The notes under the pieces were generated by a model. That model made no database searches, was not told where the DNA came from, and worked only from the letters and a program-made list of their open reading frames with translations. A stretch of 64,000 nt of DNA from an uncultured SAR86 cluster bacterium (GTDB taxonomy: Bacteria > Pseudomonadota > Gammaproteobacteria > Magnimaribacterales > D2472): the NCBI GenBank assembly GCA_902515155.1, contig CABXTT010000001.1, positions 12,389 to 76,388 of the forward strand, in the 5' to 3' direction. Below are positions 3,136 through 49,716 of this stretch, in pieces. Numbering within the stretch: the first letter of the stretch is position 1; every line of letters begins with the position of its first letter. The translations under genes and the position numbers were made by a program.

Positions 3136-3225
3136 TGGCGGAGAGAGGGGGATTCGAACCCCCGGTGGGGATAAACCCACACAACCTTTCCAAGGTTGCA
3201 CGATAGACCACTCTGACACCTCTCC
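3136..3225 (-). tRNA. tRNA-Ser (anticodon GGA)
   Basis: The reverse complement reads GGAGAGGTGTCAGAGTGG...CAACC-TTGGAAA-GGTTG...long variable arm...GGTTCGAATCCCCCTCTCTCCGCCA. It has a 7-bp acceptor stem, an encoded CCA, anticodon loop U-U-GGA-A-A and a class II variable arm. Confidence 0.9.
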
Positions 3226-3361: not shown

Positions 3362-3370
3362 GGGGGGGGG
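3362..3370. repeat. G9 homopolymer tract in an AT-rich intergenic region
   Basis: Read directly: ...atcatccc a ggggggggg ctgc... The tract lies 48 nt upstream of the ATG at 3418. It is immediately followed by an imperfect hairpin, ctgcttcttttg/caaaagagcag (3371-3402). Confidence 0.9.
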
Positions 3371-3417
3371 CTGCTTCTTTTGTTATATTTCCAAAAGAGC
3401 AGGTTGTTGATAGAAGT

Positions 3418-3714
3418 ATGACAAAAAAAGAATATATAGCTGAAATTGCTGATTCTATAGATAAGCTTAGATTATATGAAAAAGAACTAAATATAACTGA
3501 GTATAACGAAACTGAAAAGAAAATTTTTTGGACTATATGCTCAACTGTTGCAAAGTTTCCTAAATGTAATATTTCAGATGTAATTAATCATTCTAAATTA
3601 TCAAGATCTACAGTATATAAAACAATATTATTATTTGAAAAAAATTCCTTAATATCTCTCCATAGGTCCGGAGAAGACAAGAGACAACACTTAATTACGA
3701 TTATTACTGATTAA
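3418..3714 (+). CDS. small winged-helix (MarR-like) DNA-binding protein, hypothetical
   Basis: 98 aa. The segment ISDVINHSKLSRSTVYKTILLFEKNSLISLHRSGEDKRQHLITI fits the MarR-type HTH plus wing (D-x-R) pattern. It is shorter than canonical MarR. Weak SD. Confidence 0.5.
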   Translation: MTKKEYIAEIADSIDKLRLYEKELNITEYNETEKKIFWTICSTVAKFPKCNISDVINHSKLSRSTVYKTILLFEKNSLISLHRSGEDKRQHLITIITD

Positions 3715-3735
3715 TTTTTTATATTATTTCTTTAC

Positions 3736-3755
3736 TACTGTATAAATATACAGTA
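3736..3755 (+). promoter_or_regulatory. LexA operator (SOS box) embedded in a candidate promoter
   Basis: TACTGTATAAATATACAGTA matches the gammaproteobacterial consensus TACTGTATATATATACAGTA at 19/20, with CTGT-N8-ACAG intact. It is flanked by TTTACT (3731-3736) and TATTAT (3754-3759) with 17-bp spacing. Confidence 0.7.
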
Positions 3756-3765
3756 TTATACATCT

Positions 3766-3978
3766 ATGGGTAATGTAATTAAATTCAAACCAAAAGATAA
3801 TGTGCTAAGAGAGCTCGAGTGTTCTATTGATAAAGAATCAACAAAAAAAATGCTTGCCTTTAAGTACTTTAATAATGATTTTAATGCCCTAACTATATTT
3901 TTAAGTAAACATAAAACTTCAGAAGCTCAACATATAAATTATATTGAGCCCAAGCGCCAATTAGAATTTAGTTTTTAA
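3766..3978 (+). CDS. hypothetical 70-aa protein downstream of the SOS box (possibly leaderless)
   Basis: The only ORF on this stretch. Its ATG lies 7 nt after the -10-like TATTAT, with no SD. The product is Lys-rich and I recognise no family. Confidence 0.4.
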   Translation: MGNVIKFKPKDNVLRELECSIDKESTKKMLAFKYFNNDFNALTIFLSKHKTSEAQHINYIEPKRQLEFSF

Positions 3979-4030
3979 TTCTTTCTTTTTTCAATAAGTC
4001 ATTCTATTTATCAAATAGTGTGTATATAAT

Positions 4031-4222
4031 TTATTTGGGTGTCTTGTTTTTAGATTTTTTAAGGGGATTTAGAAACATTCTATTATTACCCTGAACATGG
4101 AGGTGGTCTTATTAGTATTTATACAACAACAGGAAACAGAGGGTCTGCCTTTTGACACAGGGCAAACTTTAAGTTTCTGACTAAATTTCTGTTATTAAAT
4201 AACAAAATTTAGATTTTTTTGT
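4031..4222 (+). ncRNA. candidate structured 5' leader (riboswitch/attenuator) or sRNA, class unknown
   Basis: TATAAT at 4025-4030. No long ORF. A possible 8-bp closing helix pairs 4069-4076 with 4173-4180. Segments TTTGGG (4034-4039) and GGGG-A-TTT (4063-4070) are complementary to the 5' arm of the downstream terminator. The region ends at a strong intrinsic terminator 12 nt before the EamA start. Confidence 0.3.
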
Positions 4223-4252
4223 AAACCCCCAAATTTAATTTGGGGGTTTTTT
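4223..4252 (+). terminator. Rho-independent terminator
   Basis: aaaccccca-aatttaatt-tgggggttt followed by a T-run (9-bp stem with a C5/G5 core). Unidirectional for the + strand. Confidence 0.8.
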
Positions 4253-4264
4253 ATTAGTTAAAAT

Positions 4265-5513: not shown

Positions 5514-5582
5514 ACCTTTCGCTTAATAATCCAAAACTTTAAAAAATATTAATTAAAATCCTTCAATGAATGTTTTTTTGTT

Positions 5583-5659
5583 TGGTGCGCCCGGGAAGAT
5601 TCGAACTCCCGACCCCTTGGTTCGAAGCCAAGTACTCTATCCAGCTGAGCTACAGGCGC
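5583..5659 (-). tRNA. tRNA-Arg (anticodon UCG)
   Basis: The reverse complement is GCGCCTGTAGCTCAGCTGGATAGAGTACTTGG-CTTCGAA-CCAAGGGGTCGGGAGTTCGAATCTTCCCGGGCGCACCA. It forms a cloverleaf with an encoded CCA. Confidence 0.9.
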
Positions 5660-5990
5660 ATCCTTTTATTATAAGTTTATAGAGGGGCTAATGCATATTA
5701 AATTATATGACTATTAAAAGATTTAATAGTTATTTTTAATTAATAAAAAATAGGAATAAAAAAAGCTGAAATAACAAAGAACCACTTACTAAACTTGAAG
5801 AAAATATACATTCTCATATTTCTACTGTAATCACTATATTTACTCCCCTCAAGAGACCACATCACCATAGCAATAAATAAGCAAATAATTGAATAAATAA
5901 ATATGCTTTGCATAAAATTAATTAATAGTTATTTTAAGATTTAATATATTTAACATTATAATATTATTATAAAAATACAATAGGAATTTT

Positions 5991-45582: not shown

Positions 45583-46424
45583 ATTTTTTCTATAGATATA
45601 ACTATTCCGAAGTAGGGGTGATCAAAATAGTGTATTTCTCCATCAAAAACTCTTTTTTGTTCGTCTATAAATATATTAATGTCATTATAAAGTTGATTTC
45701 CATATGACTCTTCAATTGGCAAGGTAATAACTTGTGTAAATTCATTTTTTAAATTTAGATCTAGGATAGGTTTTTCATCAGTTTTCTGTTCTGTTTTTCT
45801 AGATAAAATCTCATTTTCATATGATTTTATGTGTGAATCAGTAATTATTTTATTATCAACTGGTTTAGCAATTCCGAGATAGGCTTTTAAATCAACATGC
45901 AAGAAACGACTCTTATAGAACTTTAAATAGTATCCGTATTTATTTTCAGTATTTTTTTCAAATAGATATTTTGATATTTCTTTATTTTCAATATTTTGAA
46001 TCCAGCTATAACTATTTAAAACTTTATAATTAGTATTACTCGATAACTTTGAATTTAATTTCTTCAATTTTTCTAGATTAGTATTCTTACGAAACCAATA
46101 ACCTGGATTTGGAATAATTTTTTTAATATCTTCATCAGTATTATTTTTAGTAAAGGATGGTCTTAAATTTTTAAACATCTTTGTAAAAAAAGAATCATTA
46201 TTTTTTGGAAATAGATCTGTTGTATTTATTAATAATTCTGGCTCATAAAAACTTAAGACATTCTCTTTAGGTAATATTAATAAATTATCAAAAGTCTCAG
46301 TCGTATTTATATTGACGTTTTTAAAAATTATTAATTCAATTTTATATTCCTCTAATGCAACTTGATCTTGAGCAACTAGATTTGTTATTAAGAAAATAGA
46401 GATAAATAATTTAAATAATATCAT
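45579..46424 (-). CDS. secreted protein, possibly CsiV family
   Basis: Signal peptide, YKIELIIFK near the N-terminus and HYFDHPYFGIVISI at the C-terminus. It lies immediately downstream of mfd, as I recall for Vibrio csiV. Assignment from memory only. Confidence 0.45.
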   Translation of the reverse strand: MILFKLFISIFLITNLVAQDQVALEEYKIELIIFKNVNINTTETFDNLLILPKENVLSFYEPELLINTTDLFPKNNDSFFTKMFKNLRPSFTKNNTDEDIKKIIPNPGYWFRKNTNLEKLKKLNSKLSSNTNYKVLNSYSWIQNIENKEISKYLFEKNTENKYGYYLKFYKSRFLHVDLKAYLGIAKPVDNKIITDSHIKSYENEILSRKTEQKTDEKPILDLNLKNEFTQVITLPIEESYGNQLYNDINIFIDEQKRVFDGEIHYFDHPYFGIVISIEKI

Positions 46425-49400
46425 TTAGTAACTTAGAAATAATTCTTCTTCTATTAGCAGGTACAGGTTCAATCATATCTATAATAAATCTATTGTCTTT
46501 GTTGATGCTATAAATATTGGGCTTGTTTGTAATTAGTGTCAATATATTATCAAAAACATATTTTTTTATATTAGGAGACAACAGTAATGATGTTTTATTT
46601 TCATTTGAAGAGACTTTTTTAATACCTCTACTATTTATTAATAATCCAATTTCAGCATTATTTATCAAGTTCAGTGTTTCTTCAGGTATTGAGCCACATC
46701 TATCTTCAAGATTTGCTTTAACTTTATTTAACTCTTCAAGATTTTCTGCACTATTTATGGATTTGTATATTTTGAGTCTTTCCAATGCAGAGGGTAGGTA
46801 GGTATCACTGATATAAGAAGAATCATAGAAATTTACTTCTGTTCGTATTAGCTCTTTTTCATTATTAGATTTGAATTTATTTAAAGCACTTTTTAACATA
46901 GAAAGGTAAAGATTAATTCCAACAGTATTAATATGACCACTTTGCTTATCTCCAAGCATTTCACCCCCACCTCTAATTTCTAAATCTTCTTGAGCAATAA
47001 AAAAACCTGAACCTAAGGCAGATAATCTAATGATTGAATCTAATCTTTCCTTAGCAATTTTTGATAAATCAGGTGTTGGTATTAAAAAATAACAATATCC
47101 TTGAGAACTTGATCTACCAACTCTTCCTCTTAATTGATGAAGCTGGGATAGACCAAAATTTTGAGCGTCAATAATAACAATGGTATTTGCATTAGGTATA
47201 TCTAAACCCATTTCTACAATTGTTGTGCAAATAAGTACATCCAATTCTCCAATATCAAATCCAGTCATAACCTTTGATATATCCGTTTTATTTAATTGAC
47301 CATGAGCTATGCCTATTGTGATTTCTGGAAGTAACTTGTTAATTTCATTTTTTAAATTTTCTATTTTAGAAATATCATTTTGAACAATAAAACATTGTCC
47401 GCCCCTTGATATTTCTCTTGTAATAGCCTCCTTAATTAATTGATTTGTGTGAATCTTTAAAAACGACTTAATACTTATTCTATTTACAGGAGGGGAGTGA
47501 AGAAATGAAAATTCTTTTAGGCCTGAAAAAATAAAATTCATTGTTCTTGGTATTGGCGTTGCTGAGAGATATAAAATGTGAATATTTTCCTGTCTTGATT
47601 TAATAAGATCCTTTTGTTTTATTCCAAACTTATGTTCCTCATCTACAATTAGCAATCCTACATTAGAAAAGTCAATTCCAGAGGTAAATAATGCATGAGT
47701 TCCAATCAATATATCAATTTCGTTATTATTGAATGAGCTCACAATAGATGCTTTATTTTTTGATCCTGAATGCCTATTCAAAAGTTTGATATTCACCGGA
47801 AAGTTCTTATATCTATTTAAAAAAGATTCGTAGTGCTGATCTGAAAGAACTGTACTTGGACATAAAATAATAACTTGTTTATTTGAATGAATGGCGATGT
47901 ATGCAGATCGCATTGCTACTTCTGTTTTTCCAAAACCTACATCACCACATAAAACTCTATTCATAGGTTTAATGAGAGAAATATCTTTCTTAATAGAATT
48001 AATAGCCTCTACTTGATCAGGTGTTTCTATATATGGGAAATCTTTATTAAATTCTTCAAATGATTTGTCATCAATTCTGAGTACTGACGAGGTTGATGCC
48101 TGTCTTCTTGATTCTATATCTAGAATTTCTGCTGCATGGTCATATGCTCTTTTAGCAGCTTTATTTTTATTGTTAAGCCATTTATTTGATGATAAAGAAT
48201 CATAATTAATATTTGTTTGAATGTCTGTTTTATGAAATTTTGTTATTAACTCAACGCCTCTAAGAGGAACATATAAGGACTCGTTTCCAGAGTAAATTAT
48301 CTTAATATATTCATTTGGAATTTCGTTTGTAGTTACAATTTCTAAACCATCATATCTTCCTAATCCATACTCCTCATGAACAACCAGATCTCCAGTTTTA
48401 AACATAATATCTTTTTCAATATATTTATTGGTTTCAATATGCTCATCCGATGCTTCAATATTTATATTTAAAAAATATTCTCTATGTACAATATATTCTG
48501 CATTTTTTATATTTATTAATGGTCTAATTATAGGATTTAACATTATGTTTAGTCCTAGCTTTGCCTCATGTCGAAAATTTATTTCATTAATATTTGGTAA
48601 GTATTTTTTTAGAATTATTTCGTATTCACTAGTAATAGAAGTCATCAATATAATTCTTTTTTCCTTTAAGTTATTAAAAACTTCAGCTCGACTAAAATCA
48701 TCAAAATCCTTATATTTAAAATCACTATATTCTGATAAAGAATCACAAAACAAAGGCATTTCATTTACTTTATTTTCTATAAATGAACTTTTTATAAACA
48801 TTTCATCTGGCTTAATTAAGGGTCGTTTAATATCAATATTTTCGTCATTAAACCTTTGCTGAATAAATCTAGAATAGGATTTTATAGAACTAGATAATTC
48901 TTTATTTATGATGAATTTATAATCAGAAAATAACTCAAAAAAATTTGATTTACTCTTAAAGAATAGGGGATGATAGATTTCTGAACCTTCTGTAATCTCT
49001 TTATTATTTAATTTTTGAAATATTTCACAATCTCTTTCATCATAATCTTGAAAATATTCCCTCCATGCATCTTTAAATACTTTTAATCCCGATTCATCCA
49101 ATGAGCTTATTGAGCCCTTAGATAAATTAAATTCAGTTATTTTTTGGATAGATAGTTGAGTATCGACATCAAATAATCTTATAGACTCAATTGAGTCATC
49201 AAAGATTTCAATTCTTAATGGGTTTGAGTATATCGGTGAATAAACATCAACTATTCCTCCTCTAAGTGAGTATTGGTTTAAGGAATCAATTTTATTAACT
49301 TTTAAGTAATTTAAGGATTTCAAAATTGCCTCAAATGATTCTATTGATAGCTTATTTCCTAAATTGAAGTTTTTTCTAGATTTAAAAAAATCAATTTTTG

Positions 49401-49716
49401 GGTATACCTCAAAAAGATTTTTTACTGTAGAAATAATAATTTTATTATTATCAATTGAATTGAGTATTTTAAATCTTTCTTTAACAATAGACTCAGGAAC
49501 TGAGAAATGATCGTATGGAAGAATTTCATTTTCTGGAAAATAATCTACTTTTGTAGCATCTAGATATAAATTAAGTTCATTTTTAAGTAACTTAGCCTCT
49601 TTTGCATTTTCAACAATTACACATAAGGCATTATCCTTATCTTTATTAGCGACAAAAAGTTGATGCGCAAATCTATGGTCAATTGTTGCGCAAATTTGAT
49701 CATTTGTTTTGGCCAT
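46411..49716 (-). CDS. mfd: transcription-repair coupling factor
   Basis: 1101 aa. GDVGFGKTEVAMR, VDEEHKFG, a TRG-motif region and QLHQLRGRVGRS. Confidence 0.95.
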   Translation of the reverse strand: MAKTNDQICATIDHRFAHQLFVANKDKDNALCVIVENAKEAKLLKNELNLYLDATKVDYFPENEILPYDHFSVPESIVKERFKILNSIDNNKIIISTVKNLFEVYPKIDFFKSRKNFNLGNKLSIESFEAILKSLNYLKVNKIDSLNQYSLRGGIVDVYSPIYSNPLRIEIFDDSIESIRLFDVDTQLSIQKITEFNLSKGSISSLDESGLKVFKDAWREYFQDYDERDCEIFQKLNNKEITEGSEIYHPLFFKSKSNFFELFSDYKFIINKELSSSIKSYSRFIQQRFNDENIDIKRPLIKPDEMFIKSSFIENKVNEMPLFCDSLSEYSDFKYKDFDDFSRAEVFNNLKEKRIILMTSITSEYEIILKKYLPNINEINFRHEAKLGLNIMLNPIIRPLINIKNAEYIVHREYFLNINIEASDEHIETNKYIEKDIMFKTGDLVVHEEYGLGRYDGLEIVTTNEIPNEYIKIIYSGNESLYVPLRGVELITKFHKTDIQTNINYDSLSSNKWLNNKNKAAKRAYDHAAEILDIESRRQASTSSVLRIDDKSFEEFNKDFPYIETPDQVEAINSIKKDISLIKPMNRVLCGDVGFGKTEVAMRSAYIAIHSNKQVIILCPSTVLSDQHYESFLNRYKNFPVNIKLLNRHSGSKNKASIVSSFNNNEIDILIGTHALFTSGIDFSNVGLLIVDEEHKFGIKQKDLIKSRQENIHILYLSATPIPRTMNFIFSGLKEFSFLHSPPVNRISIKSFLKIHTNQLIKEAITREISRGGQCFIVQNDISKIENLKNEINKLLPEITIGIAHGQLNKTDISKVMTGFDIGELDVLICTTIVEMGLDIPNANTIVIIDAQNFGLSQLHQLRGRVGRSSSQGYCYFLIPTPDLSKIAKERLDSIIRLSALGSGFFIAQEDLEIRGGGEMLGDKQSGHINTVGINLYLSMLKSALNKFKSNNEKELIRTEVNFYDSSYISDTYLPSALERLKIYKSINSAENLEELNKVKANLEDRCGSIPEETLNLINNAEIGLLINSRGIKKVSSNENKTSLLLSPNIKKYVFDNILTLITNKPNIYSINKDNRFIIDMIEPVPANRRRIISKLLNDII

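What the first reader, a model, noticed from the sequence alone, without database searches (positions are those of the whole stretch)
3731..3978. Near-consensus LexA (SOS) box in the spacer of a promoter for a possibly leaderless 70-aa orphan ORF
TACTGTATAAATATACAGTA (3736-3755) matches the gammaproteobacterial LexA operator consensus TACTGTATATATATACAGTA at 19 of 20 positions, and the CTGT-N8-ACAG core is intact. A bare CTGT-N8-ACAG could occur about once by chance in an AT-rich window of this size, but a match over the full 20-mer is very unlikely by chance. TTTACT (3731-3736) and TATTAT (3754-3759) sit 17 bp apart, so the operator occupies the promoter spacer as in a classic SOS-repressed promoter. 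The ATG at 3766 lies 7 nt after the -10-like hexamer with no SD, so the mRNA may be leaderless; many genes in this window also lack an SD, which weakens that point. The 70-aa product (MGNVIKFKPKDNVLRELECSIDKESTKKMLAFKYFNN...) matches no SOS protein I know (not SulA, DinI, YebG or TisB-like). It directly follows a 98-aa wHTH gene beside tRNA-Ser. That arrangement recalls LexA-controlled small antirepressors of temperate elements (coliphage 186 Tum type) and lineage-specific small SOS division inhibitors. Either would be new for this kind of organism.
Basis: partly seen in the sequence, partly recalled or inferred. Interest (0 to 1): 0.65.

Follow-up and report, generated by a model that had tools for sequence, protein, structure and literature searches.

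The report
SOS-controlled small gene in SAR86
A near-perfect LexA (DNA-damage) operator sits on the promoter of a small gene found at this same chromosomal spot in every SAR86 marine bacterial lineage sampled. The protein belongs to no known family, and its invariant tail looks like the peptide that replication and repair proteins use to grip the DNA sliding clamp.

Summary
TACTGTATAAATATACAGTA (3736-3755) is the only LexA-like site in the 64 kb. In 24 sequences from about 14 SAR86 lineages, both 8-bp arms (TACTGTAT / ATACAGTA) are invariant. Only the central 4 bp vary, although synonymous sites of the gene are saturated.

The 70-aa ORF is a real gene, not an orphan. dN/dS is mostly 0.15-0.3, and more than 600 protein clusters exist, all placed in SAR86. 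It always lies in the same core synteny: ABC transporter, QueF, tRNA-Ser, wHTH, small gene, EamA, rhodanese. It is absent from phage and viral collections, so the Tum-type antirepressor idea is not supported.

The protein is soluble and matches no family or fold. It has three helices, a variable disordered linker and a C-terminal tail whose first Gln is one of only two invariant residues in the family. The tail occurs as QLEFSF or QPELL(H), matching the hexameric (QLxLxL) and pentameric (QLxLF) beta-clamp-binding motifs.

My best reading is a tightly LexA-repressed, SAR86-specific SOS effector that docks on the sliding clamp. That function is inferred, not shown.

Leaderless translation fits the geometry in this clade but not in all clades. 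I could not retrieve a SAR86 lexA or recA, so the regulator remains unconfirmed.

The parts
3731..3736 (+). -35-like hexamer TTTACT (TTGTAT or TTGCAT in sister clades)
   Evidence: One search finds TTTACT-17-TATTAT (9 of 12 matches). The position relative to the box is the same in L001-L019. Function is inferred, not mapped.
3736..3755 (.). LexA-type operator TACTGTATAAATATACAGTA (19 of 20 to the consensus; palindromic)
   Evidence: Searches show it is unique in the window, with 0.03 expected by chance. Searches show arms invariant in 24 sequences, with only the central 4 bp varying (AAAT, ATTT, ATAT, AGAT, ACTT, AAAC, ATAC).
3754..3759 (+). -10 hexamer TATTAT, overlapping the last 2 bp of the operator (TATAAT in most sister clades)
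   Evidence: The spacer is 17 bp. The hexamer ends 6 nt before the ATG here and 7-8 nt before it in sister clades.
3766..3768 (+). ATG start codon and predicted transcription start (T at -1, A at +1), giving a putative leaderless mRNA
   Evidence: Inferred from geometry only. All orthologues start with ATG and share a conserved M-x-N N-terminus. No 5'-end data exist.
3766..3978 (+). CDS of the 70-aa small protein (stop codon included)
   Evidence: One search lists the ORF. Searches show a conserved family. One search gives dN/dS 0.09-0.64, mostly 0.15-0.3. No Pfam, NCBIfam, PHROG, PADLOC or PDB match.
3790..3915 (+). Three-helix domain (residues 9-50) with the conserved core D-K-x-S-x-K-K-M-L-A-F-K-Y-F
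   Evidence: AlphaFold2 predicts helices 9-19, 23-34 and 39-50 with block pLDDT 81-90. A relative at about 33% identity gives the same fold with pLDDT 90-96. No significant fold match.
3916..3957 (+). Disordered linker (residues 51-64), variable in length and sequence
   Evidence: pLDDT is about 50. Length and sequence vary across alignment A4.
3958..3975 (+). C-terminal tail QLEFSF (residues 65-70), a putative beta-clamp-binding motif
   Evidence: Q65 is one of only two invariant columns in the family. 203 of 234 representatives carry the tail motif Q-[LPVM]-x-[LFMI]-(x)-[FLIM] within their last 10 residues, with up to 3 trailing residues allowed; most of the rest look truncated or chimeric. 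It matches the motif classes QLxLxL and QLxLF (PMC4564189, PMC9690074). Binding was not tested.
3418..3714 (+). Upstream neighbour: 98-aa MarR/TrmB-like winged-helix gene. Context only; not shown to act on the operator
   Evidence: It is always upstream, but in other clades 1-3 other genes separate it from the operator.
4223..4256 (+). First intrinsic terminator downstream of the small gene. It belongs to the EamA leader RNA (about 4033-4256)
   Evidence: One search finds no terminator between 3978 and 4223. define the RNA.

Best explanation
The 20-mer is the operator of the SOS repressor LexA and lies on the sigma-70-type promoter of a conserved, SAR86-specific core gene.

Without DNA damage, a LexA dimer on the near-consensus palindrome occupies the spacer and the -10 element and shuts the promoter tightly. 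After damage, RecA-stimulated LexA self-cleavage frees the promoter. In this clade the mRNA probably starts at, or within a base or two of, the A of the ATG, so it would be leaderless.

The product is a soluble 70-aa protein with a three-helix domain, a flexible linker and a C-terminal hexapeptide, QLEFSF. I propose that the hexapeptide inserts into the hydrophobic cleft of the beta sliding clamp (DnaN). The protein would then compete with, or recruit partners alongside, the replicase on the clamp, acting as a damage-induced replication brake or adaptor.

Shown here: the operator sequence and its conservation, that the gene is real and under purifying selection, the domain, linker and tail architecture, and the motif match.
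Inferred: LexA as the binder, damage induction, the 5' end, and clamp binding with its consequence.

Sub-confidences: real LexA/SOS-controlled gene about 0.85; leaderless in this clade about 0.55; tail is a clamp-binding motif about 0.45.
For: Operator:
- It is unique in 64 kb and unlikely by chance.
- Its arms are invariant in 24 sequences from about 14 lineages whose small proteins are down to 25-30% identical and whose synonymous sites are saturated. Only the central 4 bp change, which is the pattern expected for a dimeric LexA site.
- The upstream neighbour varies between clades (wHTH, a 187-202-aa membrane protein, Cupin or SnoaL), yet the box stays fixed to the small gene.
- The named hits are all SAR86 or Gammaproteobacteria. 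By established knowledge, CTGT-N8-ACAG is the LexA motif of that class. Two other marine gammaproteobacterial lexA genes fetched here carry such boxes upstream.

Gene:
- dN/dS is mostly 0.15-0.3. The family has more than 600 clusters.

Architecture:
- Two independent AlphaFold2 models give three helices, a low-confidence linker and a tail.

Tail:
- Only A31 and Q65 are invariant family-wide.
- Two tail forms exist, Q-L-E-[FL]-x-F and Q-[PL]-E-L-[LIFM]. They correspond to the hexameric and pentameric clamp-binding motifs (PMC4564189; PMC9690074).
- From my own knowledge, the closest known match is the extreme C-terminus of Pol III alpha, QVELEF.

A near-consensus operator implies tight, late derepression, which fits a product that would be harmful if expressed constitutively (inference).
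Against: - No SAR86 lexA or recA could be retrieved, so neither the regulator nor the rest of the regulon is confirmed.
- There are no expression or 5'-end data.
- The clamp-binding motif is short and degenerate. A hydrophobic C-terminal tail could equally be a protease degron or bind another partner. No complex could be modelled.
- The QPELLH form has Pro at position 2 and His at the end, which is atypical for the motif.
- pI differs between clades (9.1 against 4.5), so the helical domain gives no consistent functional clue.
- Promoter placement differs between clades, so leaderlessness is not a family trait.
Confidence: 0.5

Rival explanations
1. LexA control is the same, but the tail is not a clamp-binding motif. 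It would instead be a degron (Lon- or ClpXP-type turnover signal, as in several SOS proteins) or dock on another hub. The protein would then act as a RecA or LexA modulator, or as a soluble division inhibitor.
For: The protein is small, soluble and tightly repressed. The tail is hydrophobic or aromatic at the extreme C-terminus. By established knowledge, short-lived SOS effectors such as SulA and UmuD carry protease signals. Small proteins that modulate LexA exist, such as GIL01 gp7 and DdrR (PMC4551915 and PMC11332147, listed).
Against: The strict invariance of the Gln is characteristic of clamp-binding motifs and is not expected for a degron. There is no similarity to DinI, SulA or YebG, and none to any family in Pfam, NCBIfam, PHROGs or PADLOC, which would cover RecX and PsiB. 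There is no membrane segment of the SidA/YneA/SosA type.
Confidence: 0.3
2. The palindrome is the operator of a regulator other than LexA, for example the neighbouring 98-aa MarR/TrmB-like winged-helix protein. The gene would then not be part of an SOS response.
For: The wHTH gene is always upstream in the same orientation. By established knowledge, some gammaproteobacterial lineages such as Acinetobacter lack LexA (also PMC11332147).
Against: The site matches the gammaproteobacterial LexA consensus at 19-20 of 20 positions in every lineage, and two lineages carry the perfect consensus. In most clades 1-3 unrelated genes separate the wHTH gene from the operator. No similar palindrome lies upstream of the wHTH gene itself.
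Confidence: 0.08
3. It is a LexA-controlled antirepressor or other module of a temperate or integrated element next to tRNA-Ser (coliphage 186 Tum type).
For: The gene lies near a tRNA gene and next to a small HTH gene. By established knowledge, LexA-controlled small antirepressors exist.
Against: There is no integrase or phage gene within 10 kb on either side. The same housekeeping synteny is found in all SAR86 clades. G+C is no different from the surroundings. There are no relatives among 2.9 million viral contigs or 50,697 phage genomes, and no PHROG or PADLOC hit.
Confidence: 0.02

Closest known systems
Classical gammaproteobacterial SOS promoters (for example E. coli sulA, umuDC, recN)
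   Same: A 20-bp CTGT-N8-ACAG palindrome overlaps the core promoter elements. Near-consensus boxes are associated with tight repression (established knowledge). Conservation is concentrated in the arms.
   Different: The regulated gene has no homologue in any characterised SOS regulon. Promoter placement relative to the box differs between SAR86 clades: the box is in the spacer in this clade and over the transcription start in others. LexA itself was not verified for this lineage.
SOS-induced clamp clients: Pol II, Pol IV, UmuC/UmuD (clamp-binding motif QLxLF or QLxLxL)
   Same: LexA-controlled proteins that carry a Gln-first penta- or hexapeptide, often at the extreme C-terminus (PMC4564189, PMC9690074). 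By established knowledge, over-expressed Pol IV slows forks, which is a 'brake' precedent.
   Different: Here there is no catalytic domain, only a domain of about 40 residues plus linker and tail. Clamp binding is predicted from sequence only.
SocB toxin of the Caulobacter SocAB system
   Same: A non-polymerase protein that blocks replication elongation by occupying the clamp cleft through a clamp-binding motif (PMC9690074).
   Different: There is no sequence similarity and no adjacent antitoxin or adaptor gene. The control is a LexA box rather than proteolysis.
Small SOS division inhibitors (SulA; SidA, YneA, SosA, DidA)
   Same: Lineage-specific small proteins made after DNA damage (PMC4211646 and bioRxiv 10.1101/364299, listed).
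   Different: SidA, YneA and SosA are membrane-anchored, whereas this protein has no hydrophobic segment. There is no SulA domain.
Coliphage 186 Tum antirepressor; DinI and YebG
   Same: Small products under a LexA box.
   Different: The location is not a prophage and viruses carry no relatives. There is no DinI or YebG similarity.
Leaderless mRNAs such as lambda cI from the PRM promoter
   Same: The -10 element ends 6-8 nt from an ATG, there is no room for a Shine-Dalgarno sequence, and the start codon is strictly ATG in all orthologues.
   Different: This is not experimentally mapped. Clades L013, L220 and L221 probably make leaders of roughly 15-30 nt.

Membership tests
LexA (SOS) regulon, gammaproteobacterial type | Palindromic operator CTGT-N8-ACAG close to the 20-bp consensus | tested here: met
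   19 of 20 in the window and 18-20 of 20 in 24 orthologous sites.
LexA (SOS) regulon, gammaproteobacterial type | Operator overlaps the promoter or transcription start of the regulated gene | tested here: met
   The box fills the 17-bp spacer and overlaps the -10 element. In other clades it covers the predicted start. The promoters are predicted, not mapped.
LexA (SOS) regulon, gammaproteobacterial type | Site conserved in orthologous promoters (phylogenetic footprint) | tested here: met
   The arms are invariant while dS exceeds 1 and flanking non-coding sequence diverges.
LexA (SOS) regulon, gammaproteobacterial type | The organism encodes LexA, and lexA and recA carry the same motif | tested here: inconclusive
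   No lexA or recA lies in about 380 kb of held SAR86 DNA. A metagenome scan for an AT-biased recA pattern returned other phyla. A synthetic AT-biased LexA bait returned Pseudomonadales-like LexAs only. Viral contigs gave none. The SAR86 papers are silent.
LexA (SOS) regulon, gammaproteobacterial type | Induction by DNA damage, dependent on RecA and LexA cleavage | not testable with these tools
   This needs an experiment or metatranscriptomes.
Beta-clamp-binding proteins (clamp-binding motif) | Penta- or hexapeptide QLxLF or QLxLxL, with Gln first and hydrophobic residues at positions 4 and 5 or 6 | tested here: met
   QLEFSF, QLELSF and QLEFTF fit the hexamer. QPELL(H), QLELI, QPELF and QLAMF fit the pentamer. 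Consensus from PMC4564189 and PMC9690074.
Beta-clamp-binding proteins (clamp-binding motif) | The motif lies in a flexible, exposed segment and is conserved while its surroundings vary | tested here: met
   Linker pLDDT is about 50 and its length varies. Q65 is one of two invariant columns.
Beta-clamp-binding proteins (clamp-binding motif) | Physical binding to the DnaN cleft | not testable with these tools
   Only single-chain prediction is available, and no SAR86 dnaN sequence is held.
Temperate-element antirepressor (phage 186 Tum type) | Encoded within a prophage or integrative element, with homologues in phages | tested here: not met
   The gene sits in core synteny without integrase or phage genes. 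No hits in IMG/VR, INPHARED or PHROGs.
SulA, DinI, YebG | Sequence membership of the Pfam families | tested here: not met
   No such Pfam or NCBIfam hit even at E up to 1. No tblastn hits for DinI or YebG.
Membrane-anchored SOS division inhibitors (SidA, YneA, SosA) | A transmembrane segment | tested here: not met
   The maximum 19-residue Kyte-Doolittle hydropathy is 0.2-0.72 in four clades. The model shows three amphipathic helices.
Leaderless mRNA | Transcript 5' end at the A of the AUG | not testable with these tools
   The geometry is compatible in the window clade and most sister clades, with 6-8 nt from the -10 element to the ATG. It is not compatible in L013, L220 and L221.

The most novel reading that the evidence does not exclude
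SAR86 bacteria make, only under severe DNA damage, a minimal 'clamp plug'. This would be a leaderless-translated 70-aa protein whose C-terminal Q-L-E-F-S-F tail occupies the beta-clamp cleft and stalls or re-programmes the replisome. It would be a new class of SOS checkpoint effector, doing with a domain of about 40 residues plus a peptide what Pol IV or UmuD2C do as a brake and what SocB does as a toxin in other bacteria.
Probability: 0.35. Interest if true: 0.75.

Novelty: new variant of a known kind. Interest (0 to 1): 0.55.

Why it matters

This locus gives a concrete, conserved read-out of an SOS-type circuit in that lineage. It also assigns a testable role to a hypothetical-protein family of more than 600 clusters that is widespread in marine metagenomes.

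If the tail does bind the sliding clamp, the protein would be a natural, minimal clamp antagonist or adaptor under LexA control. That would be a new kind of SOS effector and a compact tool or lead for clamp inhibition. With a SAR86 isolate now in culture (HIMB1674, PMC11582366), the predictions can be tested directly.

Tried and rejected
Finding SAR86 lexA or recA. All routes failed.
- tblastn with E. coli LexA, RecA, DinI and YebG, and with four marine LexAs, against all held SAR86 DNA gave nothing.
- My one metagenome scan used an AT-codon recA pattern (EKQFGKGSIM). Only 3 had LexA boxes, at 39-43% G+C, so they were not SAR86.
- A synthetic AT-biased LexA bait returned 8000 candidates, but the 120 listed are Pseudomonadales- or Marinomonas-like. 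The most AT-biased ones lie on contigs of 42-46% G+C, and the cluster look-up gave no names.
- A LexA alignment against viral contigs found nothing SAR86-like.
- Papers, including the SAR86 isolate paper and its supplements, do not mention lexA, recA or the corresponding KEGG orthologue numbers.

Identifying the protein.
- Pfam, NCBIfam, PHROGs, PADLOC, a PDB sequence profile and Foldseek against PDB on two models gave no significant match.
- A hunch that it resembles Pol III theta (HolE, also a small three-helix protein) was rejected: hhalign probability 0.1%.

The 196-202-aa gene upstream of the box in sister clades is about the length of LexA. It is a multi-pass membrane protein with no S24 domain.

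A 27-codon ORF inside the downstream RNA was rejected because a stop codon interrupts it in L008 (read from the alignment).

Full report
**1. The observation**

- TTTACT lies at 3731-3736.
- TACTGTATAAATATACAGTA lies at 3736-3755.
- TATTAT lies at 3754-3759, giving a 17-bp spacer.
- The ATG is at 3766 and the 70-aa ORF runs to 3978.
- The 98-aa ORF is at 3418-3714.
- tRNA-Ser(GGA) is at 3136-3225 on the minus strand.

The bare CTGT-N8-ACAG core is not significant: 0.58 are expected per window. The 20-mer at up to 3 mismatches is significant: 0.03 are expected. A relaxed scan finds no second LexA-like site in the 64 kb. The -35 and -10 hexamers alone are at background frequency in this 31% G+C DNA. 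The missing Shine-Dalgarno sequence says little, because only 13 of 59 ORFs have a strong one.

**2. Organism and context**

Relatives of the 70-aa protein occur only in marine Gammaproteobacteria assemblies. All seven species-representative genomes that carry it are SAR86 single-cell or metagenome-assembled genomes.

The gene always sits in the same housekeeping neighbourhood: VWA/AAA genes, an ABC transporter pair, QueF, tRNA-Ser, a 96-101-aa MarR/TrmB-like winged-helix gene, the small gene, an EamA transporter, rhodanese and DUF3604. Some clades have extra genes between the winged-helix gene and the small gene:
- a 187-202-aa membrane protein;
- glyoxalase and SnoaL;
- Cupin.

There is no integrase and no phage gene, and G+C does not shift. 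The family has no relatives in IMG/VR, in phage genomes or in PHROGs. This is a core chromosomal gene, not a mobile module.

**3. The operator is conserved far beyond neutral expectation**

I compared 24 sequences: the window, L001-L019 and L220-L223. They represent about 14 distinct lineages, whose small proteins fall to 25-30% identity.
- The site always reads TACTGTAT-NNNN-ATACAGTA.
- Only the central four bases differ: AAAT, ATTT, ATAT, AGAT, ACTT, AAAC, ATAC.
- Two lineages carry the perfect consensus.
- Synonymous sites of the adjacent gene are saturated (dS above 1 for most pairs).
- The sequence upstream of the -35 element is unalignable, because different genes lie there.

Invariant arms with a free centre are what a dimeric repressor contacting two half-sites produces. 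The half-site is that of gammaproteobacterial LexA (established knowledge). The box travels with the small gene, not with the winged-helix gene.

**4. Promoter and 5' end**

In the window clade and most sister clades the box fills the spacer of TT(T/G)(A/T/C)(C/A)T-17-TA(T/A)(T/A)AT. The -10 element is TATAAT in many of them and ends 6-8 nt before the ATG, with T at -1 and A at +1. A transcript from this promoter that still contains the ATG must begin at or next to it. Leaderless translation is therefore the natural reading here, and every orthologue uses ATG.

This is not a family trait.
- L013 has 33 nt between the box and a later ATG.
- L220 and the L221 clade have a better promoter upstream (TTGAC(A/T)-17-TT(A/T)AAT). 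That puts the box over the transcription start and predicts a leader of roughly 15-25 nt.

In every architecture a bound repressor would occlude RNA polymerase. No 5'-end data exist.

**5. The gene product**

dN/dS is 0.09-0.64, mostly 0.15-0.3. The family comprises 66 clusters of the window type and 539 of a 77-aa type. That is 53 representatives at 50% identity.

No Pfam, NCBIfam, PHROG, PADLOC or PDB-sequence match exists.

AlphaFold2 gives the same picture for the window protein (mean pLDDT 74) and for a relative at about 33% identity (mean pLDDT 75, core 90-96). There are three short helices, then a low-confidence linker, then the tail. Foldseek against PDB finds nothing significant. There is no hydrophobic segment. 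pI flips from 9.1 to 4.5 between clades, which argues against a conserved DNA-binding surface.

**6. The tail**

Across the whole family only two columns are invariant: A31 in helix 2 and Q65, the first residue of the C-terminal motif. E67 is nearly invariant. The linker before the motif varies in both length and sequence.

Of 234 representatives, 203 carry the tail motif Q-[LPVM]-x-[LFMI]-(x)-[FLIM] within their last 10 residues, with up to 3 trailing residues allowed. Most exceptions appear to be truncated or to be adaptor or assembly chimeras.

Two forms occur.
- QLEFSF, QLELSF and QLEFTF in the window type.
- YYQPELL(H), QPELI, QPELF, QLELI and QLAMF in the 77-aa type.

These correspond to the hexameric (QLxLxL) and pentameric (QLxLF or QL[S/D]LF) beta-clamp-binding motifs, which typically sit at protein termini (PMC4564189; PMC9690074). 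From my own knowledge, the closest single match is the C-terminus of E. coli Pol III alpha, QVELEF.

A small folded domain, a flexible linker and an invariant Gln-first hydrophobic peptide together form the canonical layout of a clamp client. This remains an inference. No complex could be modelled and no binding data exist. A degron or another docking partner is the main alternative.

**7. Mechanism proposed**

LexA holds the promoter shut. The near-consensus site implies tight binding, so derepression would occur only after sustained damage. The small protein then accumulates and docks on DnaN. There it would either compete with the replicase, acting as a brake or checkpoint, or tether an unknown partner through its helical domain.

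Precedents for non-catalytic or inhibitory clamp occupancy are SocB (PMC9690074) and, from established knowledge, over-produced Pol IV and UmuD2C.

**8. What remains open**

I could not obtain a SAR86 lexA or recA. Five routes failed; they are listed under Tried and rejected. The two marine gammaproteobacterial lexA loci I did retrieve show the expected auto-regulatory CTGT-N8-ACAG boxes, but at 42-46% G+C they are not SAR86.

The rival that another regulator, such as the neighbouring winged-helix protein, binds the palindrome is therefore not formally excluded. It would require a 19-20 of 20 coincidence with the LexA consensus in every lineage.

**9. Verdict**

The prophage antirepressor idea is contradicted. 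A membrane-type division inhibitor is unlikely.

The gene is an order-wide, lineage-specific SOS gene of a new protein family with a probable clamp-binding tail. It is a new variant of a known kind of system. Interest is moderate to good, and it is directly testable now that a SAR86 isolate exists (PMC11582366).

Noticed in passing
window 4033-4256 (+), with promoter-like TTTATTTA-N-GTATATAAT at about 4003-4030; also L220:11362-11560 and L221:10290-10500: A roughly 190-nt structured RNA lies directly upstream of the EamA transporter and rhodanese genes. It is better conserved than the flanking genes in 12 SAR86 lineages. It has 46 predicted pairs, 18 with compensatory changes, and invariant blocks AAGGGGA, GGAGGUG(G/A)UC (an 11-nt complement of the 16S rRNA 3' tail) and CUUUUGACA. 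It ends in an intrinsic terminator, 8 nt before the EamA ATG in the window. In L220, where an alanine dehydrogenase gene is inserted, the RNA stays with EamA and not with the SOS gene. No Rfam family matches it. It is a candidate new riboswitch or attenuator.
   Followed up: partly
window 3979-4222: The small SOS gene has no terminator of its own. The first one downstream (4223-4256) belongs to the EamA leader RNA, so SOS-induced transcription would run into that leader.
   Followed up: no
L008:4992-5582, L012:3887-4495, L221:8422-8985 (absent from the window): A 187-202-aa multi-pass membrane protein with no family match sits between the wHTH gene and the LexA box in most SAR86 clades. It is missing in the window clade.
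   Followed up: partly
window 5514-5990, compared with L001-L004:7883-10420: Strain-level difference. Contigs whose small protein is 94% identical carry an 845-aa TonB-dependent receptor gene between rhodanese and DUF3604. The window has tRNA-Arg(TCG) (5583-5659, minus strand) and a 57-aa ORF (5740-5913, minus strand) there instead.
   Followed up: no
window 3362-3402: A G9 run is followed by a near-perfect inverted repeat, CTGCTTCTTTTG-N9-CAAAAGAGCAG, about 15 nt upstream of the wHTH start codon. It is flagged as terminator-like on the plus strand. It could be a 5'-UTR hairpin or the operator of the wHTH gene.
   Followed up: no
window 46411-49716 (-): This ORF is mfd, the transcription-repair coupling factor. 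In a marine Pseudomonadales-like contig (L224), mfd lies about 5 kb from lexA and topA. The window shows no lexA near mfd.
   Followed up: partly
P0076, P0077, P0094, P0116 and similar (protein representatives): Several family 'members' are chimeras or carry sequencing-adaptor-derived tails, for example ...CLLYTSPSPRDRTRSRMPSSA and ...VSYTHLTLPTIYTV, or an FKBP N-terminus joined at a shared DSSVDR stretch. These are artefacts in the public protein collection, not domain fusions.
   Followed up: partly
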